Of a stretch of 64,000 bases of DNA, positions 4,298 through 52,000 are shown piece by piece; position 1 is the stretch's first letter; each line of letters opens with the position of its first letter. The stretch comes from a virus. The position numbers were made by a program, and so were the translations under genes. The stretch is taken from positions 1 to 64,000 of the IMG/VR virus record IMGVR_UViG_3300021180_000008; one strand, 5' to 3'. Under the pieces are notes generated by a model. The model was not told the DNA's origin. It saw nothing but the letters and a program-made list of their open reading frames with translations, and made no database searches.

Positions 4298-5878
4298 CTA
4301 AATCTGTGCAGGCATAGCAGCAGCCCAATAAGTCTTAGGCCTACGGCTCTTGATGATGTCTTCATCCCAACGATTAGAATATCCATCATTATCAATCTTA
4401 AACTGGTCTCTCATCCAGAGTATTGCCTGAGAAACTGTGTCAGTGTAGTCATCTCGTTGGTTCTTAAGTCTAGGGTTAAAGGAACAGACCTCCTCCATGA
4501 CTTCTTCCGCCCAACGCTTTCCAGAAGGCACCCATATGCGGCTAGATTGAAAGTAAGGGGTAGTGGCCTGTAATCTAAAGGTTTTGTCATGCTCCGGCTT
4601 GTATGCTATGATTGGTAACGAACGCTTTCTAAGTTCAGGGATAAGCGATTGACCAGAAGCCTTATCTTCCACAATAAAGAACTCTGGGGTGTATTTGTTA
4701 TTAAGCTCTTGTGCTCTGGTACAAAGTTCAGCAAAGTCAAATCTACCTTTACCAGCACTGAGCATAATCAGACAATCCTGAGCAATATCAAGATTATCAA
4801 AGGTCTTCGTAATATGGGTAAATACCCCCCATACCGTAAAGGCTGTATAGTCTGATGTCTCTTTAGAAGAGAAGGCAGTATCCATGGAGACTACGATGTA
4901 CCTACACTTAGGAGGTTTAGGATCATCCCATATCTGCCAATGAGTTCGTTTAATTATCCCGCCTTCCTCAGAGACAGGGGACTGCATATAAAGGGCATTC
5001 CACTCAGAGGGAGGGGTTGTCTGCTTAATCTCCAGGAGTTTCTCAGTAGGCCATAGCTCAGGCCAGAATGAGGTATTCTCTTTGAACCTAGGGTCGGTAG
5101 CAGGTACTTCTTTCCTAAGCATCTCAGAAGCTTTGTGATCCAGAAGGGCTGGGAAGCTAACCACATCCCAGGGTCTAGGGGAGTTGATGTCTACGTTCAT
5201 CATAAAGCCAGATATATCTTCTACGAACCATCTGGTATTGATAATGATCTCAGCTCCTCTGGGCAGTAGACGAGTTCTTAACCCCTTACGATACCAGGAG
5301 TTAATCTTCTGACGGTCTGAGTCTGAGGTCTGCTCAGTGATAACATCATCCACGATAGAGATGTGAGCCCTACGACCCGCAATCCCTTGTCCTGCCCCCT
5401 TAGCCACGAACCTACCCTTCTTGGTGGTATCCCATCTACCAGCAGACTGAACATCCCTCTTAAGGACGGTATAAGGGAATATGGATTGGTATTGAGGAGA
5501 ATCGATAAGATCCTTAGTCGGTCTGCCAAAGTTGTCTACGGCAAACTCAAAGTCTGATCCTATGGCCAAGAAGCACCAGTTAGGATGTCTACCTAAGCAC
5601 CAGGCAGGGAACAGGTTACTAGCTACCTTAGACTTCATAGAGCCTGGGGGTAGGTGGATCTGCAGTCTCTTAGGTAGAAGGTCTGGATTCTCTACGCTAT
5701 GAACTACCTCTTGTAGCTTTCGACACATGATGGAGATATGGACACCATCTATGAAAGCTTCAGGCAGGACTGTAGGGGCCATTAATTGGACGAAGGTATA
5801 GAAATCAGTCCTAGCCTTAATGATTAGGGCTTGGAGTAGTTCTGTTTCTAGTTTATCTATTTCACTGGATAGGGTCAT
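4298..5878 (-). CDS. terL: Terminase large subunit
   Basis: LPPGSMKS Walker A variant, GIAGRRAHISIVDD Walker B, TRW, WNALYMQSP, nuclease motifs SMDTA, VEDKASG, DDYTD. Confidence 0.95.
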   Translation of the reverse strand: MTLSSEIDKLETELLQALIIKARTDFYTFVQLMAPTVLPEAFIDGVHISIMCRKLQEVVHSVENPDLLPKRLQIHLPPGSMKSKVASNLFPAWCLGRHPNWCFLAIGSDFEFAVDNFGRPTKDLIDSPQYQSIFPYTVLKRDVQSAGRWDTTKKGRFVAKGAGQGIAGRRAHISIVDDVITEQTSDSDRQKINSWYRKGLRTRLLPRGAEIIINTRWFVEDISGFMMNVDINSPRPWDVVSFPALLDHKASEMLRKEVPATDPRFKENTSFWPELWPTEKLLEIKQTTPPSEWNALYMQSPVSEEGGIIKRTHWQIWDDPKPPKCRYIVVSMDTAFSSKETSDYTAFTVWGVFTHITKTFDNLDIAQDCLIMLSAGKGRFDFAELCTRAQELNNKYTPEFFIVEDKASGQSLIPELRKRSLPIIAYKPEHDKTFRLQATTPYFQSSRIWVPSGKRWAEEVMEEVCSFNPRLKNQRDDYTDTVSQAILWMRDQFKIDNDGYSNRWDEDIIKSRRPKTYWAAAMPAQI

Positions 5879-7371: not shown

Positions 7372-7395
7372 TAGATCATGGGACGAACAAACCAA

Positions 7396-7615
7396 TTGCC
7401 ATCGTCCCTTATGTCAAGGCTCAAGGCGAGTCAGGTATAGGCGTGTTATGTAAACTGGTTAAAGTCCGGTTTTACAGGATAGGATAGCTATGTATATAAC
7501 ATAACATCCTAGCTTCGAGGCTCCATGTAAATGGGGTGCGGAGTACCCATAACATGGCTAGATACTGACTCCATAATAGGCTGGAATGAGTCTTTGACAT
7601 AAGAGATGATGGCAA
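7396..7615 (+). ncRNA. Candidate structured RNA / early leader with ~28-bp closing stem
   Basis: 7396-7423 pairs with 7587-7615 (G-U tolerant); nested helices gagtcag/ctgactc, gtgttatg/cataacat, gtaaactgg/ccggttttac. Confidence 0.6.
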
Positions 7616-7657
7616 CATGGGAATTCCCATAACGCAATTAGTCATAATTGCCCAACA

Positions 7658-15877: not shown

Positions 15878-16624
15878 ATGTCCTGTAAACTCTTAGACGG
15901 TAGATTTGAATCTAAAGTATGGGCTGGTGGTGAGGTTCATGTCAGAGTACTAGAGCACGAAGGCATTCAAGCTTTAGTAACAGCTATCTTACACAACTCT
16001 CAAGACATAATGGAAATGCTTCTGTTGTGTGACGCACTTAAAGCTTTAGGTAAAGAGATATGGCTAACCATTCCCTACCTTCCCTATGCTAGACAAGACA
16101 GGCGTTGTAAGATTGGTGAAGCTTTTAGCTTAAAGCTTATGGCTGATCTGATTAACTCCATTGAAGCTAACACTGTATCGCTCTACGATGTTCATTCTAT
16201 TGTAGCACAAGCATTGATTTATAACTGTAGTAATCATACAGCCCATGATCTTATAGGTGACTCAGATATCTATAAAGATAAACTACTAGTATGCCCCGAT
16301 GCTGGTGCAGAGAAGCGTGTACTAGAATTCCAGAAGCCCTATATCATGGCTACTAAGGTACGTGACCCCCTTACTGGTGACATCATCGACACCAGAGTTC
16401 AGACCACAGACCTAGCTGGTAAAGACTGCATAGTAATAGATGATATCTGCGATGGTGGTAGAACATTCATAGCCCTTGCTAAAGCCTTACAAGAAAAGAA
16501 CTGTGGTGAGCTTAGCCTATATGTTACACATGGTATCTTTAGTCAAGGCTCAGAGAACTTAAAGAAGTATTATAAACATATCTATTGTTACGATTATGAG
16601 AAAGGGACTATCCGATGTATGTAA
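15878..16624 (+). CDS. Ribose-phosphate pyrophosphokinase-like protein; probable NARP1 ADPR-PP synthetase
   Basis: GEVHVR, PYLPYARQDR, DVHS, CPDAGA, VIDDICDGGRTF, YVTHGIFS; paired with an NAMPT-like gene. Confidence 0.9.
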   Translation: MSCKLLDGRFESKVWAGGEVHVRVLEHEGIQALVTAILHNSQDIMEMLLLCDALKALGKEIWLTIPYLPYARQDRRCKIGEAFSLKLMADLINSIEANTVSLYDVHSIVAQALIYNCSNHTAHDLIGDSDIYKDKLLVCPDAGAEKRVLEFQKPYIMATKVRDPLTGDIIDTRVQTTDLAGKDCIVIDDICDGGRTFIALAKALQEKNCGELSLYVTHGIFSQGSENLKKYYKHIYCYDYEKGTIRCM

Positions 16625-18075
16625 ATCCACTCACCAGTATTGACTTCTACAAAGCCGATCACCGTAGGCAATACCCTAAAGGCACAAGTCTGGTGTATAG
16701 TAACTTTACACCTAGGTCTAATAAGCTTAGCAACTTACCAAATAACAATGATCATATTGTATTCTTTGGTTTGCAATACTTTATTAAGTATTTCCTTGAA
16801 GATTGTTTCGCACAAGGCTTCTTTTCTCAAGCTAAGAAGGATGTGGTCAAGGCCTACAAGCGTAGGATGGACAATGCCTTGGGTAAGGACGCTATTCCAG
16901 TAGATCATATCGAAGCTCTACATGACCTAGGCTACCTGCCTATTGAGATAAGGGCATTGCCTGAGGGCTCTAAGGTTGATATGCGAGTACCTTGTGTAAC
17001 AATCCATAACACTAAGCCAGAGTTCTATTGGTTGGTTAATTACCTAGAGACCATACTCTCAAGCTTCCTTTGGAAGTCATGTGTCTCTGCGACTACAGCA
17101 GCATGGTATAGGAATTTGTTTGATAAGTATTGTAAAGAGACTGGTGGGGATAATACCTTTGTCCCTTTCCAAGGCCATGACTTTTCATTCAGGGGTATGA
17201 GCGGGGTTCAGGATGCAGCACTGTCGGGAGCAGGGCATCTACTATCATTTGTTGGCACGGATACTGTACCAGCCATAGACTTTATGGAACAGTATTATAA
17301 TGCTAACTCTGACCAGATGCTGGTGGGATGTAGTGTTCCGGCAACTGAGCATAGTGTTATGTGTATGGGAAGTGAGAAAGGCGAATATGAAACATTTAAA
17401 AGGCTTGTTACTGAACTTTATCCAAAGGGAATCGTATCTATCGTATCTGATACTTGGGATTTCTGGAACGTACTTACTGATTACCTTCCTAAACTAAAAG
17501 AAGTAATCATGGCTAGGGAAGGTAAGGTAGTGATCAGACCTGACTCAGGCGATCCAGTTAAAATCATTTGTGGCGATCCTGATGCTATGAAAGATACCCC
17601 TACGTATCATGGAGCTGTAGAGACATTATGGAGGACATTCGGTGGGACTGTTAACGCTAAAGGATTTAAGCTACTTGATCCTCATATTGGTATCATTTAC
17701 GGGGATAGCATTACTCCTGAAAGAGCAGAGACGATCTTGGCCAAGCTCAAAGAGAAGGGTTTTGCTTCGACTAATATCGTGTTTGGGATTGGTTCTTTTA
17801 CTTATAATTTCGTTACTAGGGATACTTACGGATTTGCAGTAAAGGCTACGTATGGTGAAGTCAATGGTGTGGGTAGAGACATCTTCAAACAACCAAAGAC
17901 TGACGATGGAACGAAGAATTCGGCTAGAGGTATTCTAGCTGTAAGGAAAGGGAAACTATATGATAAACAAAACTCACTTGACGTTGAGTCAGACCTTAAA
18001 ACTGTGTTTGTTGATGGTGTTCTCAAAGTCGACGAGAATTTATCAACTATTAGAAAACGCTTAAAAGGGGAATGA
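16615..18075 (+). CDS. Nicotinamide phosphoribosyltransferase-like protein; probable NARP1 nicotinamide ADPR-transferase
   Basis: DFYKADH, HDFSFRG, SVPATEHSVM, SIVSDTWD, IRPDSGDP, IYGDSIT, FGIGSFTY. Confidence 0.92.
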   Translation: MYVNPLTSIDFYKADHRRQYPKGTSLVYSNFTPRSNKLSNLPNNNDHIVFFGLQYFIKYFLEDCFAQGFFSQAKKDVVKAYKRRMDNALGKDAIPVDHIEALHDLGYLPIEIRALPEGSKVDMRVPCVTIHNTKPEFYWLVNYLETILSSFLWKSCVSATTAAWYRNLFDKYCKETGGDNTFVPFQGHDFSFRGMSGVQDAALSGAGHLLSFVGTDTVPAIDFMEQYYNANSDQMLVGCSVPATEHSVMCMGSEKGEYETFKRLVTELYPKGIVSIVSDTWDFWNVLTDYLPKLKEVIMAREGKVVIRPDSGDPVKIICGDPDAMKDTPTYHGAVETLWRTFGGTVNAKGFKLLDPHIGIIYGDSITPERAETILAKLKEKGFASTNIVFGIGSFTYNFVTRDTYGFAVKATYGEVNGVGRDIFKQPKTDDGTKNSARGILAVRKGKLYDKQNSLDVESDLKTVFVDGVLKVDENLSTIRKRLKGE

Positions 18076-20850: not shown

Positions 20851-21108
20851 ATGCTTAAAGCCATACAGTTCTTTACGATTATTTCGTTTATTGCCTGTAT
20901 AAGCAGTATTATTACGTTTAAGCTTATGTTGGTGGAATTTAAGACTGACCATGCCGTTGTTATCATACCACATACGGATGGTAATTTTGTACTTCATGAC
21001 TCTGACTTGGAAAGGGCTAAGCATGATAATGACAAAAGACGGCAAAGGACTATGCTTGGGAAAGCTAACCTTAGAGGGAAAAGCCAAGCTAAGGAAATAC
21101 AAGGTTAA
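20851..21108 (+). CDS. Membrane-anchored hypothetical protein
   Basis: N-terminal TM; GAGG SD. Confidence 0.4.
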   Translation: MLKAIQFFTIISFIACISSIITFKLMLVEFKTDHAVVIIPHTDGNFVLHDSDLERAKHDNDKRRQRTMLGKANLRGKSQAKEIQG

Positions 21109-21385
21109 CGATAATATAGTTAACCAAGATAGAGTTGAAGCTTTAAAGATTATCGAATATGTCAAGAAGAAATTCAATAGGGACTTATTGGGGGAGTATG
21201 TGGATACTGTATCCAGACATGCTTTTAAAAGAGTTAACCTATGGAATCTATCGCCTAAGCAACTAGCTAACTGGCGATGGTATAGTAAGTTTGAGTTGTC
21301 CCTTATTGAGAATATACGTAAGGATAAGCAGCTTGAGGTAAAAAGTAAAATAAAATTAATCAATGGAGGAGATAACTATGCCTAA
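21023..21385 (+). CDS. Hypothetical protein
   Basis: 3' part of track ORF 20951..21385. Confidence 0.45.
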   Translation: MIMTKDGKGLCLGKLTLEGKAKLRKYKVNDNIVNQDRVEALKIIEYVKKKFNRDLLGEYVDTVSRHAFKRVNLWNLSPKQLANWRWYSKFELSLIENIRKDKQLEVKSKIKLINGGDNYA

Positions 21386-21773
21386 TGCAATGTTCACAAC
21401 TGACGGAGCTCAACAACGCCAATACAATCACATTAACGGTTCACGCGAACTTAAGGTTGCCTTGACTTCGGGAAACAACCGTGGTAAATACTTTACTTCA
21501 CACACTCTTCGCGAAACTGTTAATGCTGGTGGTCAAAGCCTGTCTTCCAATTACGTTGCTGCACGCATGGCTAGTTTTTATAAGGATGGGTTAGTTAAAC
21601 GTAAACTTGTTCGCAGCCCTGTTAATAAAGGTCCTGCCAAGGTTTGGGCATTTGCTTGGAAGAAGAACGCGCCAGTTAGTGTTAAGTCCGCAATCTTCCG
21701 TGTCGGTACTAACCCCGCAGCCACATATGTAAGGGACAATAATGTCACTATTACACCTGACGCAACAAATTAA
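21378..21773 (+). CDS. Putative winged-helix DNA-binding protein
   Basis: GGAGGA SD; FTSHTLRE...SSNYVAARMASFYKDGLVKR helix-wing pattern. Confidence 0.5.
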   Translation: MPNAMFTTDGAQQRQYNHINGSRELKVALTSGNNRGKYFTSHTLRETVNAGGQSLSSNYVAARMASFYKDGLVKRKLVRSPVNKGPAKVWAFAWKKNAPVSVKSAIFRVGTNPAATYVRDNNVTITPDATN

Positions 21774-21789
21774 GAAAAGGATAATTAAA

Positions 21790-22677
21790 ATGGTAACACC
21801 ACAAGAGAATCCTGATCTTACTTATTCTAGAGGCCATGCTCTGAGTACAGGTGAATTTACAACATGGAACCCAGTGCGAAGCCTTCATGCTTTCTCTAAG
21901 ACAGATTTGGATACTGATCCTATCTTCTTGGGCATGGAGTGGGAAGTGACACATGAAGGTTCTAATTATAGAAATATGATTAAGAAAGCTGCCTCCTTAC
22001 CAATCTTCGATAAGATTAACTTCGGTAATGGTGGTGCTCCTATCGAGATGCGTACTTGCCCAGGGACTTATCGCTATCTGTCTAAGGTCATTTCTGAAGA
22101 GTTCTTTGGTAATAATCTGCAACAGGATATGTATATCACAACTTCAAATGGCATACATGTGCATATTGATAAGAAGACAGGCTTCCCATCTACTACATCC
22201 CTTAATAAGTTCTGTGTGTTTATTAATCTTCCTACGCATAAAAGTTTTATTCAGGAGATTAGTGGCAGGGCTATGACTAATTGGTGTGCTCCTAATGTAA
22301 TGGATGTTAAGTACTTCGTAGACCTGTCTAAGCTGCCTAAGAAAGCAGTAGCCATAGAGTCTCTGAATAGACTTACTCGTATTGTCGGGGGTGTTAATAA
22401 GAATGTTGAGGGCTCAGGTAAACACGTAGCCGTTAATATTTCTGGTCATGCTTCGACAGTGGAACTTCGTATCTTTGCTTCACAAGCACAAGAAGCTGCT
22501 GTCCTTAAGAACCTTGAGTTTGTAGATGCAGTGATTAGGTTTACCAGAACTCGTATGTATAACAAGTTGACTATTGAGAACTTTGTTAAATATGTTGAAG
22601 AACATCAGAATGACTATCCCAATCTCTATGCTCATTCAGCTATCGTTTCACGTATTAAAACACAGAAGATTGCTTAA
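21790..22677 (+). CDS. Amidoligase (COOH-NH2 ligase type 2-like), copy 1
   Basis: PIFLGMEWEV, IEMRTCP, GIHVHI, AVN, TVELRIFAS; track start 21742, likely start 21790. Confidence 0.8.
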   Translation: MVTPQENPDLTYSRGHALSTGEFTTWNPVRSLHAFSKTDLDTDPIFLGMEWEVTHEGSNYRNMIKKAASLPIFDKINFGNGGAPIEMRTCPGTYRYLSKVISEEFFGNNLQQDMYITTSNGIHVHIDKKTGFPSTTSLNKFCVFINLPTHKSFIQEISGRAMTNWCAPNVMDVKYFVDLSKLPKKAVAIESLNRLTRIVGGVNKNVEGSGKHVAVNISGHASTVELRIFASQAQEAAVLKNLEFVDAVIRFTRTRMYNKLTIENFVKYVEEHQNDYPNLYAHSAIVSRIKTQKIA

Positions 22678-22680
22678 GGG

Positions 22681-23315
22681 ACTACACCCTTAAGGAAGTA
22701 ACGTGGGTCGGATCGTCCTTAATCCTATCCGCATATATCAAAACTTTATTTAGCTTATCCAGACTAGCCATCGAGGTGGGTTTGCGACTGCGTCTTCCTC
22801 TCTTCGCAAGGAGAGATAGAGCGAAGCTCGTTTACCGGCTTATGACGTGTGCCGTATCTGGTGTAGCGGATAGAGTATTGCTGTAAACTAGACGAATCAG
22901 GTTGAAGGCCTACCAACGCGGCCCTGCTAAAGGGTTTCAAGTGTAGGACTATATATCTGTCTATCTAGTCGTAGGCTGGTAATCGCTGATGGTTTTCAAC
23001 GACCTGACGCAACCCAATCGCCACTAAGGGGTAGACTGAATAGGGGATTCTCTACTTGGTTATGCCTAATATAAAGTGACTAGTAGTTCAGCCTGATGTA
23101 AATAGTACCAGTTCCTGGTCTTTGGGTTTAGCGAAAGTCTGCAGATTGCCGTTCTTTACGGAGTGTAACAGTTTGTATAGCTTTATTCGAGATAATCTTA
23201 ATCAGTCATAATACTTAATAGGCTAAGGAGCTGTGAAGGAGTTAGACTAGTCCGTCGGACACTGACTTTGGACAGGATGTCACTCCCTCTTACGTTACTT
23301 CCTTAAGGGTGTAGT
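22681..23315 (+). ncRNA. Large (635-nt) candidate structured RNA closed by a perfect 24-bp inverted repeat
   Basis: actacacccttaaggaagtaacgt (22681-22704) / acgttacttccttaagggtgtagt (23292-23315); many nested helices; no ORF of 60 aa or more in the track. Confidence 0.75.
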
Positions 23316-23323
23316 AAACGCAC

Positions 23324-25732
23324 ATGAAATCAATAAAGAAAGCTGTCGAGATACACTTTAAGAATAATCAGGTTTTTGATATAGATTATAAGCCTGAGGA
23401 TATAAGACTAGATGTTATAGACTGTATCGAGCTTTATAATGTCCCAATGAACCTATTCTTTTCTCAGTTAGCTGAAGCGATGGTTGCTTTGAAGGCTAAA
23501 TATGTAGATTCAAGTAATCTGGTGTTTGGGCATTACGGAGAAAGACAGGGACTTGGGACTGAAAACCTATTTGTATTCGCCTACAAACTATACTCTGTAA
23601 AGGAAAAAAGGGAGATTGTAATGCTACCTAAGTACATGGCTTCATTGGTCACTGGACCTGCTCCAGATATTAAAGAACGGCAAGAGACTAGTATGCATCT
23701 CTTTGTTGATGTTCTTAAAGAAATGGCCAATGATGAGTCTGAGTTGTGCAAGAAGAACAACCGTTCTTGGCTTGCCAAGGATATGTTTGCTTCGCATCCT
23801 AAGGTACATAGGGGATACTATCATCATAAGCATGAGGGAGTTCTTTATGTTATTGATGCTGTATCAGGGGATAAGATACGCAAGGATGAGTCTTGCCTGA
23901 CCACTGAAGGTACGTTTATTCATAAGAGCCGTACCGAGCATTCCAACTTTCAGCAGATGTCACACTCTACCAGAAATAGACTAATAGCAGTAGGACGTGC
24001 ATCAGTACCTGTTAACGATCCTATACTGAGTAGTCTCTATTTCTATGAACCTGGTTCACATCTATATATCAAATATAAAGCAGAGCAGTGGAAGATTGCC
24101 CTTGCTATGCCCAGAGCTTTGAGAAGCATTTGTCAATTGTGGTCAGCCTACTGCGCTTATAGCGGCTCTCAGACCTTGCCTGAATCGGTTGATGATATCG
24201 TAGGAGCATGGACTGCTTTCCTTGGCTTTGCTGGCAGGAATAGAACTCAAGAAGAACAGCTTTACGAGTGTCTTCGTCTTACTTTGGAAGCTACTGGCAA
24301 CAACTTTTATATAGTACCAAAGGATTCCCCTCTATTCCCCGGTATGGTTCTGGAAGATGGTGATCGGCTGGGACAGATGATTGCTCAGAATCCTTATGGC
24401 TCACGTAAGCCAGTGATATGTCTTAATCAAGAGATGCGTGTATTCTGGGATGCAGGTAACCTAGGTCCCAATAGGGCTATTGTTCCTGTTAGCTTGGGAA
24501 CCTTTCCTTTTGACATCTGTGTTAATGTAACTGCTCAGCAAACCATCTCTTCGAGCACTAATCAACAGACCCGTAATAACTATGGAGAACTACTTCAACA
24601 CTCAGCCCGAGTTAATGAAGTTAAGGTCTGCTTTATGATGACCGATGCAGAGAAGAAAGTCTTTGACTATAAAGAGAACCAGCTTAAGGAGGCTTTGGCT
24701 ACACATAAGGCTAATCGCACTAAAGCTTTGGCTGAAGGTAAGCCGTTTATCGAGGCAGCTCCCAGACGTGCAACTGAAGATGAGCCTATCTTCCTTGGCA
24801 TGGAACTTGAAGTGCTACTTAAGTCAGCTTTACAGAACTCTGCCAGCATGAAATCTTTGATTAAGGAGATTGCTGACTCTAAAGTAGGTAATCACGTAAT
24901 CACTAAAGCAGATGGGTCTATTGGCTCGTATGGTATAGAGATTGTGACTATCCCAGCAACCTTGAAATATCATAAGGATATCCTAGATAAACATTTCTTC
25001 TCCCCTCCTAATGAGTTTAACCGTAGGTTGATGGCAGCAGATACATGTGGTATTCACGTCCATATCTCTAAGAAGTCATTGACTACACAGAAGCTTGGGC
25101 AGTTGATGGCTTTTATTAACAATAATAAGAACGGTTCATTCATTAATGCTTTGGCTGGTAGAGCCCCTAATAACTATTGTGTACGATCAGCAGTATTGGG
25201 CAACAATACCAAGGGTGTTGACGTATCCGCTAAGGTAGTTAAGAAGGCTTGTAAAGACGGGGATATCAAGAAGGGGCTTGCCTTCCGGCGTATTGAAGGG
25301 GCATCTCACTATGATGCTGTTAATATCCAGAACGCTAATACCGTAGAAATCCGTATCTTTAAATCTTCTACAGACAAACACCGTATCTTCCGTATACTTG
25401 AGTTCTGTGAATCTCTTGTCAAGTTTGTACGTTGTCATGGTATGCAGCAAATGACTGTGTATGACTATGTACAGTTCCTGCTTAGAAAAGAGAACCAAGA
25501 AGATTATCACCACATGATACTTTGGCTTGCTTCTAAGAATATGATTGGACACACAACTAAATACGCAAAAGATCCTAAGACGGGAGAGTTGCGTAAGAAG
25601 TTGATACACGTATATGGGGAAAACTTGATACCTTTCCCCAGCTCCTTGTTCCATGCTAATAAGGAAAATTACCCTGAGTATTACGCTAAGCTTAATAAGT
25701 CAACAACCAAAACCAAGGAAAAGGAAGCATAA
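23324..25732 (+). CDS. Amidoligase (COOH-NH2 ligase type 2-like), copy 2, with long N-terminal extension
   Basis: PIFLGMELEV, KADGS, IEIVTIP, CGIHVHIS, YDAVN, TVEIRIFKS in the C-terminal half. Confidence 0.85.
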   Translation: MKSIKKAVEIHFKNNQVFDIDYKPEDIRLDVIDCIELYNVPMNLFFSQLAEAMVALKAKYVDSSNLVFGHYGERQGLGTENLFVFAYKLYSVKEKREIVMLPKYMASLVTGPAPDIKERQETSMHLFVDVLKEMANDESELCKKNNRSWLAKDMFASHPKVHRGYYHHKHEGVLYVIDAVSGDKIRKDESCLTTEGTFIHKSRTEHSNFQQMSHSTRNRLIAVGRASVPVNDPILSSLYFYEPGSHLYIKYKAEQWKIALAMPRALRSICQLWSAYCAYSGSQTLPESVDDIVGAWTAFLGFAGRNRTQEEQLYECLRLTLEATGNNFYIVPKDSPLFPGMVLEDGDRLGQMIAQNPYGSRKPVICLNQEMRVFWDAGNLGPNRAIVPVSLGTFPFDICVNVTAQQTISSSTNQQTRNNYGELLQHSARVNEVKVCFMMTDAEKKVFDYKENQLKEALATHKANRTKALAEGKPFIEAAPRRATEDEPIFLGMELEVLLKSALQNSASMKSLIKEIADSKVGNHVITKADGSIGSYGIEIVTIPATLKYHKDILDKHFFSPPNEFNRRLMAADTCGIHVHISKKSLTTQKLGQLMAFINNNKNGSFINALAGRAPNNYCVRSAVLGNNTKGVDVSAKVVKKACKDGDIKKGLAFRRIEGASHYDAVNIQNANTVEIRIFKSSTDKHRIFRILEFCESLVKFVRCHGMQQMTVYDYVQFLLRKENQEDYHHMILWLASKNMIGHTTKYAKDPKTGELRKKLIHVYGENLIPFPSSLFHANKENYPEYYAKLNKSTTKTKEKEA

Positions 25733-25733
25733 G

Positions 25734-27221
25734 ATGTGTGTCATTATTTGTAAACCAGCAGGTAAAGAGTTGGCTGAGACAGATGTAAGGGGAGCACACC
25801 GTGCAAATCCTGATGGTTTTGGTCTGATGTATTATGACGAAGAGAAGAAAGACATCTTTGCCCGTAAAGAAGTCTTTAAAGAGCCTGATAAGATTATTAA
25901 GGCAGTAAAGGCTTTGAAGGATGTAGACGCTTGCTTCCACTTCCGCATACGTACCCATGGCCCTATTGCCTATCAAACATGCCATCCATTCCGTGTAACT
26001 AACAAAGAGAAGCACGGCATGACCATTTATCTTATGCATAATGGTATTATTCATGGTATGAAAGAGAAGCAAGATGAATCGGATACTCAAGCTTTTGTAA
26101 ACTCATATCTTCATGAGTTGCTTAAGCGTGATCCATCTATGATTGAGTCTGAAGCTTTCCGTGACCTGATTGAGAACAAGATCGGAGCCAATAACAAGCT
26201 ATGCTTTATGTATGGTGAAGGCAAGATCATCCGCTTTAACGAGCGTTCTTGGATGAAGCATGAAGATATGGATGTATCTAACCGTAACTTTGTTAGTTAT
26301 GGAGGATATAATAACTACGACTACACTTCTGGACGAAGAAAGAAGTCATGGGAAAAGGATGAAGACAGCACTAAAAGCAGCGCTGGGACCTCCAGCCCCA
26401 CAGTCATTCCGGTATCGGCCCCCAAGATGGGAGATAAAGGAAAAGTTGCTAGTCTGTGCGGTACTCCTGTCGCTGTGGGGAGTTCTGTCTTTATCACTCA
26501 TCGGCAAGAGCCTGACTGGTATGCTGAAGGGAAGATTACCGATATCAATAGCTCTTTTAGCGTCGCTGTTACTTTTACTGACAGGTTCAACAAACCAGTT
26601 AGCTTCGCTTTTTTCACATCAACCGGAGTATCAACCTACGCCTCAGCAGATGTGGGCTATCAGTGTATACCCATGAACCGCAAGTCGCCAGATATGGATA
26701 AGACTATCAGGACATTGACAGCGTCTACCACCGATCCTCTGCCTAAATCAGATGATGTATGTTTGCTTGAAGATAAGAGTGATAAAAAAAAAGAGGAGCA
26801 GACTCAGTCCGTGACCAAAGAAGCGCACACTTTGAACGTATCACACGGTACTTTGACTGTGGATGCTAACTCTCGTTGGGGTGGCGAGCTTCTTAATAAC
26901 GAGAATGGGAAGGTCTATGACATTACCTATGAAACAGGTACTAGCTTCGTAGACATCTTTCTTATGAGCCCTCAAGATCGTTTCAACTTCTATATGAACA
27001 ACGTTCAAGAGTCCTTTAATATGTGGCAAGACTTGGTCGAGAAAGTGATCTCTGATCAAGTTGACGAGGGTACTCTAGCTTATGAGAATGGTATTCTTAT
27101 GGAGCTAGTACCGCCTGACACTGAAGATGACGATGAAGAAGAGAGCATGTCTAAAGAAGAGATGGAAGCAATGCATGATGCTCAAGATGTCATGATGATT
27201 GCTGCAGGAATGAAAGCTTAG
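25734..27221 (+). CDS. Class II (Ntn) glutamine amidotransferase with C-terminal extension
   Basis: True start MCVII gives the N-terminal nucleophile Cys; NPDGFG, HFRIRTHG, CHPF, MHNG, ESDT. Confidence 0.9.
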   Translation: MCVIICKPAGKELAETDVRGAHRANPDGFGLMYYDEEKKDIFARKEVFKEPDKIIKAVKALKDVDACFHFRIRTHGPIAYQTCHPFRVTNKEKHGMTIYLMHNGIIHGMKEKQDESDTQAFVNSYLHELLKRDPSMIESEAFRDLIENKIGANNKLCFMYGEGKIIRFNERSWMKHEDMDVSNRNFVSYGGYNNYDYTSGRRKKSWEKDEDSTKSSAGTSSPTVIPVSAPKMGDKGKVASLCGTPVAVGSSVFITHRQEPDWYAEGKITDINSSFSVAVTFTDRFNKPVSFAFFTSTGVSTYASADVGYQCIPMNRKSPDMDKTIRTLTASTTDPLPKSDDVCLLEDKSDKKKEEQTQSVTKEAHTLNVSHGTLTVDANSRWGGELLNNENGKVYDITYETGTSFVDIFLMSPQDRFNFYMNNVQESFNMWQDLVEKVISDQVDEGTLAYENGILMELVPPDTEDDDEEESMSKEEMEAMHDAQDVMMIAAGMKA

Positions 27222-36619: not shown

Positions 36620-37501
36620 ATTAAAGAATTAAAGTCCCTGCCTGAGGATATTGACAGGCTCTTCTTTGAAGGCAAGGTTCCTTCTGAAGATAATCTAAAT
36701 TTGTTTCTACAGAACATTGGATCCTTGCTGAAGGAGCGCCTAACTCCTCGTAAGGATGGTGGCCCTACCATACGCATGTCTAAGCTGGGAACCCCAGATA
36801 GGAAGCTGTGGTATGAGCATCATTCTACGCAGAAAGAGAATACACAAGCTAAGAATGCTTTAAAGTTTGTCTATGGGGATATCATTGAACAGCTGATCAT
36901 CTTCCTTGCTAAGGAATGTGGTCATACAGTTGAAGATGAACAGAAAGAATGGGATATAGATGGTATCATCGGACACCAAGATGCAAAAATTGATGGAATT
37001 GTGGTGGACGTCAAATCTGCTTCTTCCTATGCCTTTAGGAAATTCTCTGAGCGATCTCTATTTAAAGATGATCCTTTCGGATACATTGCTCAACTCTCTG
37101 CCTACGCCCATGCTAATGGGGCTGATACAGCGAGCTTCATTGGAGTTAACAAAGAGACTGGAGAACTGTGTCTCCTCCCCTTATCTGAAGTAGATACGAT
37201 AAACCCTATAAAACGAATTGAACAGGTTAAGAAACTGGCTGCGCCTGATGCGCCTAAACCTGAAAAGAAATGCTACGAGCCTATTCCCCATAATAAGTCG
37301 GGGAATATGCAACTGCATAAGAATTGTACTTATTGCCCCTTTGCTAAAGATTGCTGGAAAGATGCAAACAATGGAAAGGGCATTAGGTACTTTAACTATT
37401 CTAATGGCCTTGTCCCGTTGGTCAAGGTGTTAGAAGAGCCGAAAGTGGAAGAGGTTATTAAACAAGCCGACAGTATGAAGAATACTTCGGATAATTGTTG
37501 A
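36620..37501 (+). CDS. PD-(D/E)XK Cas4-like exonuclease; probable ATT start
   Basis: RMSKLG..RKLWY, GHQD..IDG.VVDVKSAS, GYIAQLSAY, C.YC.F...CW; frame extends upstream of the track start to ATT 36620 with GGGAG SD. Confidence 0.85.
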   Translation: MKELKSLPEDIDRLFFEGKVPSEDNLNLFLQNIGSLLKERLTPRKDGGPTIRMSKLGTPDRKLWYEHHSTQKENTQAKNALKFVYGDIIEQLIIFLAKECGHTVEDEQKEWDIDGIIGHQDAKIDGIVVDVKSASSYAFRKFSERSLFKDDPFGYIAQLSAYAHANGADTASFIGVNKETGELCLLPLSEVDTINPIKRIEQVKKLAAPDAPKPEKKCYEPIPHNKSGNMQLHKNCTYCPFAKDCWKDANNGKGIRYFNYSNGLVPLVKVLEEPKVEEVIKQADSMKNTSDNC

Positions 37502-42690: not shown

Positions 42691-43368
42691 ATGGCTCCTA
42701 AGAAGACGCACGTTACTGCCCCAAAGCCTTTGACCGCTAAGCAAGCTCAATTGGCTAGATCCATAAGTGAAAAGGAAATGACCATTGTCACAGGACCGGC
42801 AGGTACGGGTAAAACATTCATGCCAGCTGCATTGGCGGCATACTATTATTCTAAAGGTCTGGTTGAGACGATCATCATTACGCGTCCGACGGTTCCTTGC
42901 GGTAAAGGCCTAGGCTTCTTGCCAGGGACTATAGATGAGAAGATAGAGCCTTGGGTAGCGCCTATAATTCAGGTCTTAATAGACTTCTTATCCAAGGGTG
43001 AAGTAGAATGTATGGTAAAGAATGGCAAACTTAAGATCATTCCATTCGACACAATTAGAGGTCATACGTTTAACAGTGCTTTTGTTATCCTGGATGAAGC
43101 GCAGAACACAACGATCCCTGAGATCAAAGCGTTTGTTACAAGGACCGGTAAGGATAGCAGGACCGTTATTAACGGTGATATCTCGCAATCGGATTTAAAG
43201 AACAACGAGAAATCTGGTTTAGCTTATCTAACTTATCTATTAGAAGATGTTAATAACGAAAACTTATCGAATAAGGTTGGGCAAGTACATTTTGAGATTG
43301 AAGATTGTGTACGTTCGGCTATATGTAAAGCGTGGATAAAGGCATTCGATGACGACAATAGCGTATAA
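42691..43368 (+). CDS. phoH: PhoH-like ATPase
   Basis: GPAGTGKT, ITRP, LGFLPG, RGHTF, LDEAQN, GDISQSD. Confidence 0.95.
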   Translation: MAPKKTHVTAPKPLTAKQAQLARSISEKEMTIVTGPAGTGKTFMPAALAAYYYSKGLVETIIITRPTVPCGKGLGFLPGTIDEKIEPWVAPIIQVLIDFLSKGEVECMVKNGKLKIIPFDTIRGHTFNSAFVILDEAQNTTIPEIKAFVTRTGKDSRTVINGDISQSDLKNNEKSGLAYLTYLLEDVNNENLSNKVGQVHFEIEDCVRSAICKAWIKAFDDDNSV

Positions 43369-49033: not shown

Positions 49034-52000
49034 CTATCTACCTTGTTCCTGATTGTATTGTTGCCAGAATTGGTTAACTCCAAACGTACCCCTGTATAGC
49101 CCCTGTTTACCACCTAGATTAGCTCTGGTTGGTGCCAGGGGTTCTTCGCGTTGTACCATCTGTTGTCTTAATTCATTCATCTTAGAAGCCATATCCAAAG
49201 GCAGGTGATTGTCTTGACAGAACTTGGCATATTCCATAGCAGCCTGTTTCAGATCTTCTTGTGCAGCTTGTACACCTTGGCTATCGCCATTCTTAGCGGC
49301 ATCCATAGCAGTCATCTGTGCATAGGCCATACGTTGCTGGAACCTTGCATCAGCAGTCTGGGTTTCTTTAGATTGCATCTTAGTCTCATGGATTTGCTCA
49401 TTCGCAGAAGCTATCTGGTCTGAAGTAAGGCCTAAAGCCCTAGCCATAACACTCCATGTTGATACTTGATCTGGAGGCAGGGCCCTATAAGGAGCAACAC
49501 CACCCATGCCTGACATAGCCCCTCTGGTAGACAGAAGGTAAGCTTTCTCCATGTTAGAGGCTGCTGTGGGCATAATAGCTTGTGCTATAGAGGCAAACCC
49601 AGGTTGCCCATTCCTATAAGCATTCCATGCACTGGCTGCATTGTTAATCATATTCCCCTCAACCCCAAGAGTGTCAAGGCTATGCCCTTGTTGACCCATA
49701 AGGTTCATAAGCACATCCTCGCCTGGGATGGGTAGTCCTATCCGTTCGGATATCTCTATATTACCAAAAGCCCTTAAAGCTCCGTTAGTAACCAGAACCC
49801 CAGCCTTAGCAGAACCAGTGTCATCAGCTATCTGTTTCTTGATCAGATACTCCCAATCGTAGTCAGTTCCGTTAATCGAGTTATAAGCGGCCTGGGACGT
49901 GTTTAGAAGCAGTTTCATACCAGGTAGGCCCTGTACACCAGAGAATAGTGCAAACGCTCCTAGCATCACCCCAAGGGCTCTACGGCCATCTGTACCACGG
50001 TTGTACATCTTAACCATACTCTCTAGGACGTTATGGTCAAACGACATGAAAGGAATAAGAATTGCCCCACCAGCACCCTGAAGGTATGGAGAGCGATCTA
50101 CCTTGCCTGGAGTACCATTCTCCTCATCACAAGCATACAAAGCCGCACAAAGGGCAGGAGACCAATCCGGATTACGCTGCCTCATGTCCTTATAGATCTC
50201 ATTCGTTTGGTAAAGCTTATCTAGGAAACCCGGTACTTGAGTTTCTTTGGCTCGCATAGTATTAAAGTTAGCCATAAACGAGGTAGTACGGATCATACGC
50301 TCTACCATAGCCAAGGGCTTAGAGAGCCATAGAGCAGCCTGACTAGCCTTGTTAGCGAACTGACCTTGAGCTGTCTCGGTACCGTAGGTATCGCCAGTAG
50401 CGTAGGTTCTGGTGTTTGATTCGGCTAGACGGTTAGTGTCAAGGGCAATCTTAATTGCCTTAGCTTCATCTTGATCTATATCCTTATTGGCGAGCATCTT
50501 ATTGATGATGTCTTCACTATGGACAGCCCCAAACTTATAGTTTAGTTCCTTAGTGTACTTAAGGCTCTTTGCCATGTACTTGCCAATCATAGCCATATTG
50601 TTTAATGGATTCGGATTGATCTGGTTAAGATTACCTAATGTGGCAGTAGGCAGCTTCATTGTCTCTACCAATAGGGATGACATGTTACCACCCATACACC
50701 ATAAGTAGTTAGCCATCCTGAGCATTGAGTAGTCACCACCAGCAGAATTCAGATAGCCTCTTTGTTCCGTACCATTACCATCCATACCACCTATATGCTG
50801 AGCGATCTTGGTTTTAAGATTAGCATCTAACAGTTGAGCGTACTGTCGACGGAAGTAAGGAAGTTTCCTGGCAATGTCCATATGAGACATATAATGAGCA
50901 TCAGTAGTCATCCAAGAGTGTAATACCCTATCCCAATCTCTGGAATAGCCATCAATGTTTCTAGACTTCTTAAACATCTTGGAGAATTCATCAGAAGACA
51001 TCTTAGACGATAGCATATCACGTATATCGTTATATTTATCTGGATCTACATCGCGACTGTTAAGAACACCCATCATAGTCTCAAGGTTATCAAGATTGAT
51101 GCCGTGCAGTCTCATGTTGTCATGAGTTAAGGCAAAGGGCAGACCTATGTCGCGCTTTTGAACCCCGTTCTTATCATGGAGTTGACCATCCATACTATCA
51201 TGGATAACGAAGTCAGAGCCAGAGTATTTCGCCAATTCAGATTTAGCGCGTTCCATAGACCTAGGATCAAACGCTTTATTAAATGTACCGGACTCAACAG
51301 TTATAAGGGCTTTCAAGTCCCCTTTGGCCCAGCGACCTTGAGGATCGTTATTACGGTAGTGTACTGAATAAGCATACTTACCGTAACGTACAGAAGGCAT
51401 GTACTCAGATGATTTTAATTTTGCAAGAGCATCTAGCTCTTCTCCTACAGTTTGTAGGCGGTTTGCCGCAGCTTTGAAGTCGTCTGAGTTACGTGCTTCA
51501 GGTGTAGCATATTTATCATTAAGCTTGGCTGTCTCATCAGCTAAGTCCTGCTTACCGAAGTCCGGCTTAACACCCAACTCTTGAGCTATACTCTTACGCC
51601 ATTCAGTTTCTTTAGCACCTAAAGCCATGCGTCCAGCATCCTGTAAGGCCTTAAGACCCTTTACCAAACCTGGGTTAGTTACGCTAATCTCTTGACCTTC
51701 TTTAAGACTGCCATGATTGACTGCTACATCCTGCATATGATCTTTGTGGTAGTCAAAGCTGACCTTAGTCCCGTCTTGATTAAAGCGTAACAGCTTCTGA
51801 GACTTGTTAACCGCTTTCATAATATCGCAGCATTGAGCTCTGTCAGCCTTATTCAGATCAGCAAAACCACCTTGTAAGGACTTGGCAAACGCTTGTAGGT
51901 ATTGACCTCTCTTCAGAGAAGCATTGTCGTATAGGTTCTTTACTGGGGCAAGGAAAGACTTCCTATCGCACAGATTACGGAATGATTCAATCCACATACC

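What the first reader, a model, noticed from the sequence alone, without database searches (positions are those of the whole stretch)
22681..23315. 635-nt ORF-free, multi-branched RNA-like element sealed by a perfect 24-bp inverted repeat, between two amidoligase genes
Seen: in a tightly packed genome this gap has no ORF of 60 aa or more. Its ends are exact reverse complements (22681-22704 / 23292-23315), extendable inward by G-U and G-C pairs. It nests further helices: tcctta/taagga, ctatccgc/gcggatag, agtattg/taatact, gctgtaaact/agttt..tatagc, tcaggttgaaggcc/ggttttcaacgacctga, aacccaa/ttgggtt, gacta/tagtc, accag/ctggt and ggagt/actcc. Frequent G-U pairs favour RNA over DNA structure. Known: giant phage-associated RNAs (ROOL, GOLLD) are in this size class. 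Inference: a large ncRNA cut out of the operon transcript at its closing stem (RNase III-like) and possibly functionally linked to the amidoligase/GATase enzymes. I know of no large RNA described in that context.
Basis: partly seen in the sequence, partly recalled or inferred. Interest (0 to 1): 0.9.

Follow-up and report, generated by a model that had tools for sequence, protein, structure and literature searches.

The report
Abundant stem-excised large phage RNA
An uncultured soil phage makes a discrete, abundant RNA of about 583 bases that codes for no protein, is cut out of a longer transcript at a long end-pairing stem, and matches no catalogued RNA family; what it does is unknown.

Summary
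The gap 22678-23323 has no ORF of 60 aa or more, and its ends are an exact 24-bp inverted repeat.

Main result: three soil metatranscriptome runs each gave one contig covering 22707-23284/23287/23289. That is the interior, starting 2 nt inside each arm. K-mer depths were 58.5, 16.1 and 32.5, against 2-3.6 or nothing for flanking genes. One contig runs into a sequencing adapter after 23289.

One distant relative (L020, neighbouring proteins 39-64% identical) has a 506-nt ORF-free element at the same place, just upstream of the large amidoligase gene. It is sealed by a 25-nt repeat of unrelated sequence and shares a ~170-nt core. In that core, 24 predicted pairs hold in both sequences and 7 change on both sides.

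There is no Rfam match, no conserved ORF and no second copy.

Caveats: only two members were found, the interior folds no better than shuffles, and strand, processing enzyme and function are inferred.

Verdict: a new family of large processed phage ncRNA. The scan has noted other stem-framed large phage RNAs on other DNA.

The parts
22681..22704 (+). 5' arm of the closing (processing) stem; absent from the abundant RNA
   Evidence: 24/24 complementary to 23292-23315. All three RNA contigs start at 22707.
23292..23315 (+). 3' arm of the closing stem; absent from the abundant RNA
   Evidence: A DNA-run contig (X3, 23055-23323) runs across it, so the assembler can cross this arm.
22707..23289 (+). 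Mature RNA of about 583 nt. The ends are observed; the strand is inferred.
   Evidence: Contigs 22707-23287 (X4, depth 58.5), 22707-23289 followed by 22 adapter letters (X5, depth 16.1) and 22707-23284 (X6, depth 32.5), each with 0 other letters. G22707 and C23289 would pair with each other directly above two G-U pairs.
22885..23060 (+). Conserved core shared with L020:5425-5575; a predicted three-way junction
   Evidence: Shared blocks TAGACGA, TTGAAGG, ACTATATA, ACCCAATCGC, AGGGGT and GGGATT lie in the same order. RNAalifold gave 24 pairs, all standard in both sequences, 7 changed on both sides.
22900..23019 (+). Helix A: 22900-22904 (GGUUG) with 23015-23019 (CAAUC); it closes the junction
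   Evidence: 5 pairs, one G-U/A-U change against L020 5434-5438/5536-5540.
22906..22950 (+). Helix B hairpin: 22906-22913 with 22943-22950
   Evidence: 7 pairs, 3 changed on both sides against L020 5440-5447/5475-5482. An unpaired G/A is kept in both.
22968..23003 (+). Helix C hairpin: 22968-22975 with 22996-23003
   Evidence: 7 pairs, 3 changed on both sides against L020 5490-5497/5518-5525. Loop lengths are 20 vs 19 nt. The alignment here is less certain.
22725..22873 (+). Window-specific 5' domain of about 150 nt with no counterpart in L020
   Evidence: The stretch between the 5' arm and the core is 184 nt in the window and 41 nt in L020. The fold is predicted only.
22670..22697 (+). Alternative local hairpin. 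It holds the upstream stop codon (22675-22677) and could cap the 3' end of the upstream mRNA after cleavage.
   Evidence: Arms 22670-22680 and 22687-22697 are 91% complementary with a 6-nt loop. The role is inferred.
22675..22680 (+). UAAGGG, a Shine-Dalgarno-like sequence. The closed stem would bring it to 8 nt before the ATG at 23324.
   Evidence: This phage uses AAGGGA/AAGGAG 5-9 nt before many starts. In the linear sequence the nearest GGG lies 14 nt before the ATG. The arrangement is not conserved in L020.
21742..22677 (+). Upstream gene: a 311-aa amidoligase paralogue
23324..25732 (+). Downstream gene: 802-aa protein with a C-terminal amidoligase (glutamine-synthetase-like) domain and an unassigned N-terminal ~470 aa
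   Evidence: Pfam. AlphaFold model with pLDDT 78. Foldseek matches to YbdK and glutamine synthetases. The Atlas search gave nothing usable for residues 1-470.
25653..27221 (+). Class-II glutamine amidotransferase gene (522 aa)
   Evidence: Pfam GATase_4, 27.6 bits against a cut-off of 23.

Best explanation
The stretch encodes a stable, non-coding, plus-strand RNA of about 583 nt (22707-23289). It is transcribed as part of the plus-strand operon. The 24 perfect pairs plus two G-U pairs formed by its flanks act as a processing stem, as in ribosomal RNA precursors and T7 intergenic RNase III sites. A double-strand-specific cut at the top of this stem, with trimming of a short overhang, releases the RNA. 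Its first and last bases (G22707, C23289) pair with each other. The released RNA outlasts the neighbouring mRNA and accumulates. It is built around a conserved three-way-junction core with variable outer domains and most likely acts in trans through its fold, like other large phage RNAs (ROOL, GOLLD). The cut also separates the upstream and downstream mRNAs. In the uncut transcript, the closed stem places UAAGGG 8 nt before the amidoligase start codon. Shown: the ends, the abundance in RNA libraries, the lack of coding capacity, and conservation of place, stem and core in one relative. Inferred: the strand, precursor processing, the enzyme and a trans-acting function.
For: 1; 3 of 3 RNA runs laid gave one contig each, all starting at 22707 and ending at 23287, 23289 and 23284. 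Contig depths were 58.5, 16.1 and 32.5. In X4 three other phage contigs in 23416-25000 had depth 2-3.6. X5 and X6 had no flanking contig.
2; the DNA run X3 covers the element and its flanks alike at depth 1-4.
3; the X5 contig continues after 23289 into 22 letters that I recognise from memory as an Illumina adapter, so molecules end there.
4; the RNA runs held 0.21-0.34 of the words of a 2,001-base query, of which the RNA makes up 0.29.
5. L020 has a 25-nt repeat (23/25 complementary) around 456 nt at the same genomic place. Its sequence is unrelated to the window's arms, so complementarity is kept and sequence is not.
6; the core blocks are collinear. The alignment scored 188, against 154.5 +/- 8.9 (maximum 178) in 100 shuffles.
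7; all 24 pairs are standard in both sequences (48 of 48 cells) and 7 have changed on both sides. Sliding the partner by 1-3 columns gives 31-46% paired and 0-3 such pairs.
8; each plus frame has 13-17 stops (window) and 8-15 (L020). The only tblastx match is 7 aa at E 3.8.
9; no promoter-like site lies before 22707 on the plus strand and no terminator-like site at 23289.
10. Strand: all neighbouring genes are on the plus strand. The G-U pairs work only on the plus strand. One end is sharp (22707 in 3 of 3 runs) and the other ragged. The adapter type fits a stranded library (recalled knowledge).
Against: 1. Only two members were found, so the covariation rests on one pairwise comparison, and the structure was predicted from the same alignment.
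2. The interior is no more stable than shuffled sequence or coding controls.
3. Contigs cannot show strand, true ends or expression level with certainty. The tool itself rates coinciding contig ends as a weak hint.
4. The three RNA runs carry different study codes, but all are soil samples of 2018 and may come from one campaign.
5. No read joins or precursor contigs were seen, so a precursor-product relation is inferred.
6. At nucleotide level the RNA is not detectably conserved by blastn, whereas parts of the neighbouring genes are.
7. The RBS-bridging arrangement is not kept in L020, where the arms overlap the upstream stop codon and an in-frame ATG.
Confidence: 0.68

Rival explanations
1. 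A cis-acting processing module with a stable by-product. The long stem is an intergenic RNase III-type site that separates and stabilises the two mRNAs and tunes amidoligase translation. The 583-nt loop merely survives because it is folded and has no trans function.
For: The local hairpin 22670-22697 could cap the upstream mRNA. The closed stem rebuilds a canonical RBS spacing. Split RBSs bridged by a hairpin are known in T4 genes 38 and 25 (passages of PMC3014915). The interior fold is not above chance.
Against: A processing site needs no 450-580-nt insert. A ~170-nt core with ordered identical blocks and compensated helices is kept between phages whose neighbouring proteins are only 39-64% identical. 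The RBS bridging is absent in L020.
Confidence: 0.17
2. A self-splicing intron or other ribozyme-bounded element that is excised, with the flanks re-joined.
For: It is a discrete excised RNA of intron-like size lying between a stop codon and a start codon. Flank depth was too low to see joins.
Against: No group I, group II or small-ribozyme model matched, even at E up to 10. No reading frame crosses the element (stop at 22675-22677, ATG at 23324). No joint was reported in any of the four runs. The ends GUCGG... and ...CCCUC do not fit the group I or II end rules as I recall them.
Confidence: 0.05
3. The arms are two inverted copies of a promoter. Convergent transcripts starting 3 nt beyond each arm anneal, and the 583-bp double-stranded overlap survives.
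For: 22707 and 23289 lie symmetrically, each 3 nt beyond its arm. Contigs cannot tell strands apart.
Against: The arm sequence occurs nowhere else in the window or in L020 and differs completely between the two phages. There is no sigma-70-like match before 22707. No phage RNA polymerase was seen among the 36 window ORFs I scanned; not all ORFs were scanned. Only one adapter type was assembled at 23289 (interpretation recalled).
Confidence: 0.04
4. A DNA-level mobile element (a MITE-like insertion with terminal inverted repeats), or a retron-like template RNA.
For: Perfect 24-bp terminal repeats. Deleting exactly 22681-23315 would leave a canonical RBS.
Against: It is single-copy in the 73,567-base record and has no target-site duplication. 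Between the two homologues the interior core is kept while the terminal repeats are unrelated, the reverse of what transposase-bound ends show. In L020 the arms overlap coding sequence. There is no transposase or reverse-transcriptase domain in the flanking proteins. DNA depth is uniform.
Confidence: 0.03

Closest known systems
ROOL and GOLLD RNAs (large ornate RNAs of bacteria, prophages and phages)
   Same: A large, protein-free RNA associated with a phage and of unknown function. ROOL averages 581 nt (abstract and ROOL section of PMC5737381), close to the 583 nt seen here.
   Different: No match to any Rfam model, ROOL and GOLLD included, even at E up to 10. No tRNA genes nearby. It lies inside a protein-coding operon and is framed by a 24-26-bp end-pairing stem. 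Oligomeric cages, as reported for ROOL and GOLLD (abstract of 10.1101/2024.12.08.627333, listing), were not tested.
Processing stems of bacterial rRNA precursors and T7 intergenic RNase III sites (textbook knowledge, recalled)
   Same: The 5' and 3' flanks pair in a long helix, and the mature RNA begins and ends at its top. It lies in a polycistronic transcript of a phage with a T7-like replication module.
   Different: The product is neither rRNA nor mRNA. The enzyme is unidentified. The observed ends would be blunt (G22707-C23289), so a 2-nt overhang from RNase III would have to be trimmed afterwards.
Split ribosome-binding sites of T4 genes 38 and 25
   Same: An intervening RNA structure can bring a distant Shine-Dalgarno sequence to working distance from the AUG (passages of PMC3014915). 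Here UAAGGG would come to 8 nt before the ATG.
   Different: The looped-out part is 635 nt, against 22 to 27 nt in T4. It is itself released as an abundant RNA. The arrangement is not conserved in L020.
Other stem-framed large phage RNAs noted earlier by this scan (e1-5884509 and others)
   Same: Uncatalogued phage RNAs of 0.5-1.5 kb, one of them with a 28-bp end-pairing helix.
   Different: Different genomes. No sequence likeness was recorded. Those notes were not checked here.

Membership tests
ROOL (Rfam) | Match to the family covariance model at its gathering score | tested here: not met
   0 matches in the window at gathering thresholds. No ROOL row at E up to 10 on 22500-23500 or on L020 5250-5950.
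ROOL (Rfam) | Length near 581 nt | tested here: met
   RNA contigs span 578-583 nt. The ROOL average comes from PMC5737381.
ROOL / GOLLD | Often next to tRNA genes or in prophages | tested here: not met
   No tRNA gene in 64 kb. The setting is the replication/auxiliary operon of a phage with no integrase seen among the ORFs scanned.
GOLLD (Rfam) | Match to the family covariance model | tested here: not met
Group I / group II introns | Ribozyme core recognised by the Rfam models | tested here: not met
   No such row at E up to 10.
Group I / group II introns | Interrupts a gene, so that exon joining restores a frame | tested here: not met
   Stop codon at 22675-22677 before the element and ATG at 23324 after it. 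No joint in 4 runs, though flank depth was low.
MITE / insertion sequence | Several copies with the same terminal repeats, and a target-site duplication | tested here: not met
   Single copy. The 24-mer is absent from the viral collection. No duplication at the ends. The homologue has unrelated ends.
Retron ncRNA | Adjacent reverse transcriptase gene | tested here: not met
   No RT family in the 311-, 802- or 522-aa proteins, even at E up to 5. The fold of the 802-aa protein matches glutamine-synthetase-like ligases only.
RNase III-processed precursor (rRNA-like) | 5' and 3' flanks form a helix of about two turns or more around the mature RNA | tested here: met
   24 Watson-Crick pairs plus 2 G-U pairs in the window; 23 of 25 in L020. 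The RNA ends lie at the top of the helix.
RNase III-processed precursor (rRNA-like) | Cleavage by RNase III leaving 2-nt 3' overhangs | not testable with these tools
   Contig ends give 22707 and 23284-23289. An end at 23291 was not seen but could have been trimmed.
Split RBS (T4 gene 38/25 type) | A structure between the SD and the AUG restores working spacing, and is conserved | tested here: inconclusive
   The spacing would be 8 nt with the stem closed, against 14 nt in the linear sequence. Not conserved in L020.

The most novel reading that the evidence does not exclude
The RNA is a working partner of the enzymes it always precedes. It would be a scaffold, carrier or substrate that the 802-aa amidoligase binds through its unassigned N-terminal ~470 residues and that the glutamine amidotransferase acts on, giving a phage RNA-enzyme machine for RNA-tethered amide-bond chemistry. 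A second bold reading is that it self-assembles into an RNA-only cage like ROOL or GOLLD.
Probability: 0.1. Interest if true: 0.9.

Novelty: new variant of a known kind. Interest (0 to 1): 0.72.

Why it matters
Large structured RNAs of phages (GOLLD, ROOL) are few, and their function is still open. This one has three useful features.
- There is direct evidence from natural soil communities that it is made, has defined ends and outlasts its neighbouring mRNAs.
- Its layout is unusual: it lies inside a protein-coding operon and is released by an rRNA-style end-pairing stem.
- It has a fixed neighbour, a large amidoligase with an unexplained N-terminal half, which gives a concrete hypothesis to test.

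A second stem-closed, very stable element in the same phage (7390-7620) suggests that this phage uses the same layout more than once. The defined ends and small conserved core make the RNA easy to transcribe in vitro for cleavage, structure and binding studies.

Tried and rejected
Searches for more members; none was found.
- blastn of the window element and of the L020 element against 50,697 phage records: no match.
- The 24-mer arm in the viral collection: 0 matches.
- Protein-guided locus searches with the 802-aa protein, a 2-sequence alignment and a 19-sequence alignment. In the viral collection these gave only L027. Its 527-nt gap holds a 69-aa ORF and promoter-like repeats and has no flanking long repeat. 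The core model does not match it.
- Primase/helicase-guided search: 16 loci at 31-36% identity. A weak nhmmer hit in 2 of them (E 0.0028) lies inside a 106-aa ORF and was rejected. No core-model match in any of the 16.
- Motif scans: viral collection, 1 locus (L021, inside a 1,440-aa ORF), 1 locus (L022, coding) and 31 loci (none matched the core model at the pattern site; 4 weak matches elsewhere at E 0.23-0.96). Genome collection, 2 loci (L025, L026; GC-rich coding; only the 20-nt motif aligned).
- The single metagenome scan gave L020 only.
- The core model found no second copy in the phage's own record.

Structure work that led nowhere.
- MAFFT of the whole elements.
- Anchored piecewise alignment with RNAalifold: poor alignment, not used.
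- mafft-qinsi is not installed, so the script failed.
- MFE helices and pair probabilities of single sequences were not comparable between the two RNAs outside the core.

Function.
- The N-terminal half of the 802-aa protein has no Pfam or PHROG family. Foldseek of the whole model matched only the ligase domain. The Atlas search of residues 1-470 gave nothing usable, with all TM scores under 0.3.

Literature.
- The search 'amidoligase + phage + glutamine amidotransferase + RNA' returned 13 papers, 12 of them listed. Judged from titles and abstract starts only, none concerns an RNA at such loci.
- I did not search further, so 'not in print' rests and the Rfam scans. Supplementary files were not consulted.

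Other points.
- No inference is drawn from parts of the stretch that lack cover.

Full report
THE OBSERVATION.

The window is part of a 73,567-base virus record, estimated 79% complete. Genes are tightly packed. Between the stop codon of a 311-aa gene (21742-22677) and the ATG of an 802-aa gene (23324-25732) lies a gap with no ORF of 60 aa or more.

Its ends, 22681-22704 and 23292-23315, are exact reverse complements. The 24-mer occurs nowhere else in the window at up to 3 mismatches, and never in 100 shuffles. In my own test, the best 24-nt antiparallel window scored 24 matches, against at most 20 in 100 shuffles. Two G-U pairs and a G-C pair extend the helix inward.

The downstream protein carries an Amidoligase_2 domain just above Pfam's cut-off, followed by a class-II glutamine amidotransferase. 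The upstream protein is a diverged amidoligase paralogue.

Without the arms, the interior folds at z = -0.68 (plus strand) and -1.36 (minus strand). Three coding controls gave -0.39 to -1.22. The z of -4.5 for the whole element is therefore due to the closing stem.

WHAT IT IS NOT.

- No Rfam family reaches its threshold anywhere in the window.
- At E up to 10 only two chance rows appear around the element, a Streptococcus sRNA and a snoRNA.
- There is no tRNA gene in the window.
- The element is single-copy in the phage record.

IT IS MADE AS A DISCRETE RNA.

Eleven public runs hold part of a 2-kb stretch around the element. Seven are soil metatranscriptomes, and five of these hold 0.21-0.34 of its words. 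The RNA described below makes up 0.29 of that stretch.

I laid one DNA run and three RNA runs on 21000-25000.
- Each RNA run gave a single contig over the element: 22707-23287 (depth 58.5), 22707-23289 (depth 16.1) and 22707-23284 (depth 32.5), all identical to the window.
- In X4, three other phage contigs downstream had depth 2-3.6.
- The DNA run covered the element and its flanks alike at depth 1-4, and one of its contigs crosses the right arm. The stop is therefore not an assembly effect of the repeat, which at 24 nt is also shorter than the 31-letter words.
- The X5 contig runs on after 23289 into 22 letters that I recognise, from memory, as the Illumina adapter seen at the end of read 2. 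Molecules therefore end there.

The abundant species is thus the interior without the arms. Its first base, G22707, and last base, C23289, would pair with each other on top of the stem.

Limits:
- Contigs give one depth per contig and no strand.
- The tool itself rates coinciding ends as a weak hint.
- The three runs carry different study codes, but all are soil samples of 2018 and may belong to one campaign.

STRAND.

I infer the plus strand, for four reasons.
- All neighbouring genes are on the plus strand.
- No promoter-like site precedes 22707.
- The G-U pairs of the stem extension and of the comparative core work only on the plus strand.
- One end is sharp in 3 of 3 runs and the other ragged. 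Only one adapter type was assembled at the ragged end, as expected for a stranded library (recalled knowledge).

One of the two mismatches in L020's stem would be a G-U pair on the other strand, so this evidence is not unanimous.

A RELATIVE.

The phage is isolated.
- The closest primase/helicases in the viral collection and among cultured phages are 31-36% identical.
- A word-index search found one other 802-aa-like protein, at 44% identity.
- A full HMMER search shows that about 30 full-length homologues exist in public data.

One metagenome contig (L020) was retrievable. It is syntenic: amidoligase (39% identity), amidotransferase (43%), a DNA-binding protein, a 255-aa protein (45%) and primase/helicase (46-65%).

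Directly upstream of its amidoligase gene lies a 506-nt ORF-free stretch sealed by a 25-nt inverted repeat with 23 of 25 complementary bases (5363-5387 and 5844-5868). The arm sequence is unrelated to the window's.

Inside, a collinear set of identical blocks marks a shared core of about 170 nt (TAGACGA, TTGAAGG, ACTATATA, ACCCAATCGC, AGGGGT, GGGATT). The alignment of the region scores 188, against 154.5 +/- 8.9 for shuffles. Neither element has a conserved reading frame, and L020's has no Rfam match either.

On the core alignment RNAalifold predicts a three-way junction:
- Helix A: GGUUG/CAAUC in the window, GAUUG/CAAUC in L020.
- Hairpin B: 7 pairs, 3 changed on both sides, with one unpaired G/A kept in both.
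- Hairpin C: 7 pairs, 3 changed on both sides, with loops of 20 and 19 nt.

All 48 cells pair, and 7 of 24 pairs changed on both sides. With the partner slid by 1-3 columns, 31-46% pair and 0-3 change. This is one pairwise comparison, and the structure was derived from the same alignment, so I treat it as suggestive only.

The window carries about 140 extra nucleotides in its 5' domain.

NO FURTHER MEMBERS.

Four motif scans returned 35 loci in all. Every one was a chance match inside coding sequence or failed the core covariance model. Three other phage loci with an amidoligase-amidotransferase pair have no such gap or repeat: L023, L024 and L027. The RNA is therefore a feature of this small clade, not of the enzyme pair in general.

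HOW IT MOST LIKELY WORKS.

Keeping a helix of about two and a half turns while its sequence turns over completely points to a structural signal at the RNA level. The same holds for RNA ends lying exactly at the top of that helix. A protein-bound DNA end or a promoter would not behave this way.

The nearest models are the processing stems of rRNA precursors and the RNase III sites between T7 early genes (textbook knowledge, recalled). A staggered double-strand cut after 22706 and after 23291 would have RNase III geometry. Removing the two-base overhang would then give the observed 23289.

After the cut:
- The upstream mRNA could end in the local hairpin 22670-22697.
- The released, folded RNA would outlast the mRNAs.

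In the uncut transcript the closed stem puts UAAGGG 8 nt before the amidoligase ATG. This is the spacing and motif the phage uses elsewhere. It recalls the hairpin-bridged ribosome-binding sites of T4 genes 38 and 25 (passages of PMC3014915). L020 does not share it, so I treat it as a lineage-specific accommodation.

What the free RNA does is unknown. By analogy with ROOL and GOLLD, and given the conserved junction with conserved unpaired stretches, I favour a trans-acting structural role.

RIVALS.

- A purely cis-acting processing module whose loop merely survives is the main rival. It does not explain the conserved core.
- An intron is unlikely. No ribozyme model matches, no frame crosses the element and no joint was seen, although flank depth was low.
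- Inverted promoters yielding double-stranded RNA would explain the symmetric ends. But the arms are unique in each phage, differ between the phages, and no phage RNA polymerase was seen among the 36 ORFs I scanned.
- A MITE or a retron is rejected. The element is single-copy, has no target duplication, keeps its interior while its ends are unrelated between homologues, and has no transposase or reverse transcriptase nearby.

COMPARISON AND NOVELTY.

ROOL averages 581 nt (PMC5737381) and this RNA is 583 nt, but it fails the ROOL and GOLLD models and lacks their tRNA or prophage setting.

It is best described as a new family within the known kind 'large phage ncRNA'. The twist is that it sits inside a protein-coding operon and is released by an rRNA-like stem.

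This scan has noted other uncatalogued large phage RNAs on other DNA, one of them with a 28-bp end-pairing helix. I did not check those notes, and they share no sequence with this one.

My literature check was limited to two searches, read as listings, and to passages of two papers. Supplements were closed.

VERDICT.

The enzyme link and the function remain open.

Noticed in passing
window 7390-7620 (+): A second stem-closed, ORF-free element. A 22-nt inverted repeat (7396-7417 and 7594-7615, 91% complementary) encloses 176 nt. The RNA fold is -99.8 kcal/mol against -59.0 +/- 4.7 for shuffles (z = -8.69, 0 of 200 as good). It lies between a 64-aa ORF ending at 7374 and a 42-aa ORF whose ATG (7617) follows the stem directly, the same layout as the main element. 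No Rfam match.
   Followed up: partly
window 15878-18075 (+): Adjacent genes for a ribose-phosphate pyrophosphokinase-like protein (248 aa) and a nicotinamide phosphoribosyltransferase (486 aa, PHROG E 1e-197). Together they form a phage NAD-salvage pair.
   Followed up: partly
L020 5259-5366 (+): A 35-codon ORF with two Cys pairs (zinc-ribbon-like by eye) ends with its stop codon inside the 5' arm of L020's closing stem. An in-frame ATG of the amidoligase ORF (5851) lies inside the 3' arm.
   Followed up: no
window 23208-23237 (-): The best sigma-70-like match of the region (TTCACA-18-TATTAT, 10 of 12) lies on the minus strand inside the RNA. The count of such sites in the region (9) is no higher than in shuffles (10.9).
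   Followed up: no
window 22673-22680 and 23302-23309: CTTAAGGG occurs directly before the 5' arm and again inside the 3' arm, and both arms contain the palindrome CCTTAAGG. This allows alternative local hairpins at both cut ends. It may be a trace of how the stem arose.
   Followed up: partly
L027 1402-1717: In an unrelated phage, the non-coding stretch upstream of the large amidoligase gene carries two copies of GTTGGACTCC within promoter-like sequence. It is not homologous to the RNA studied here.
   Followed up: no
window 36701-37501, 42691-43368 (+): A Cas4-domain exonuclease and a PhoH-like protein lie among the plus-strand genes. The 2,021-aa minus-strand ORF (49034-55099) is an internal virion protein with an N-terminal transglycosylase domain, not an RNA polymerase.
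   Followed up: no
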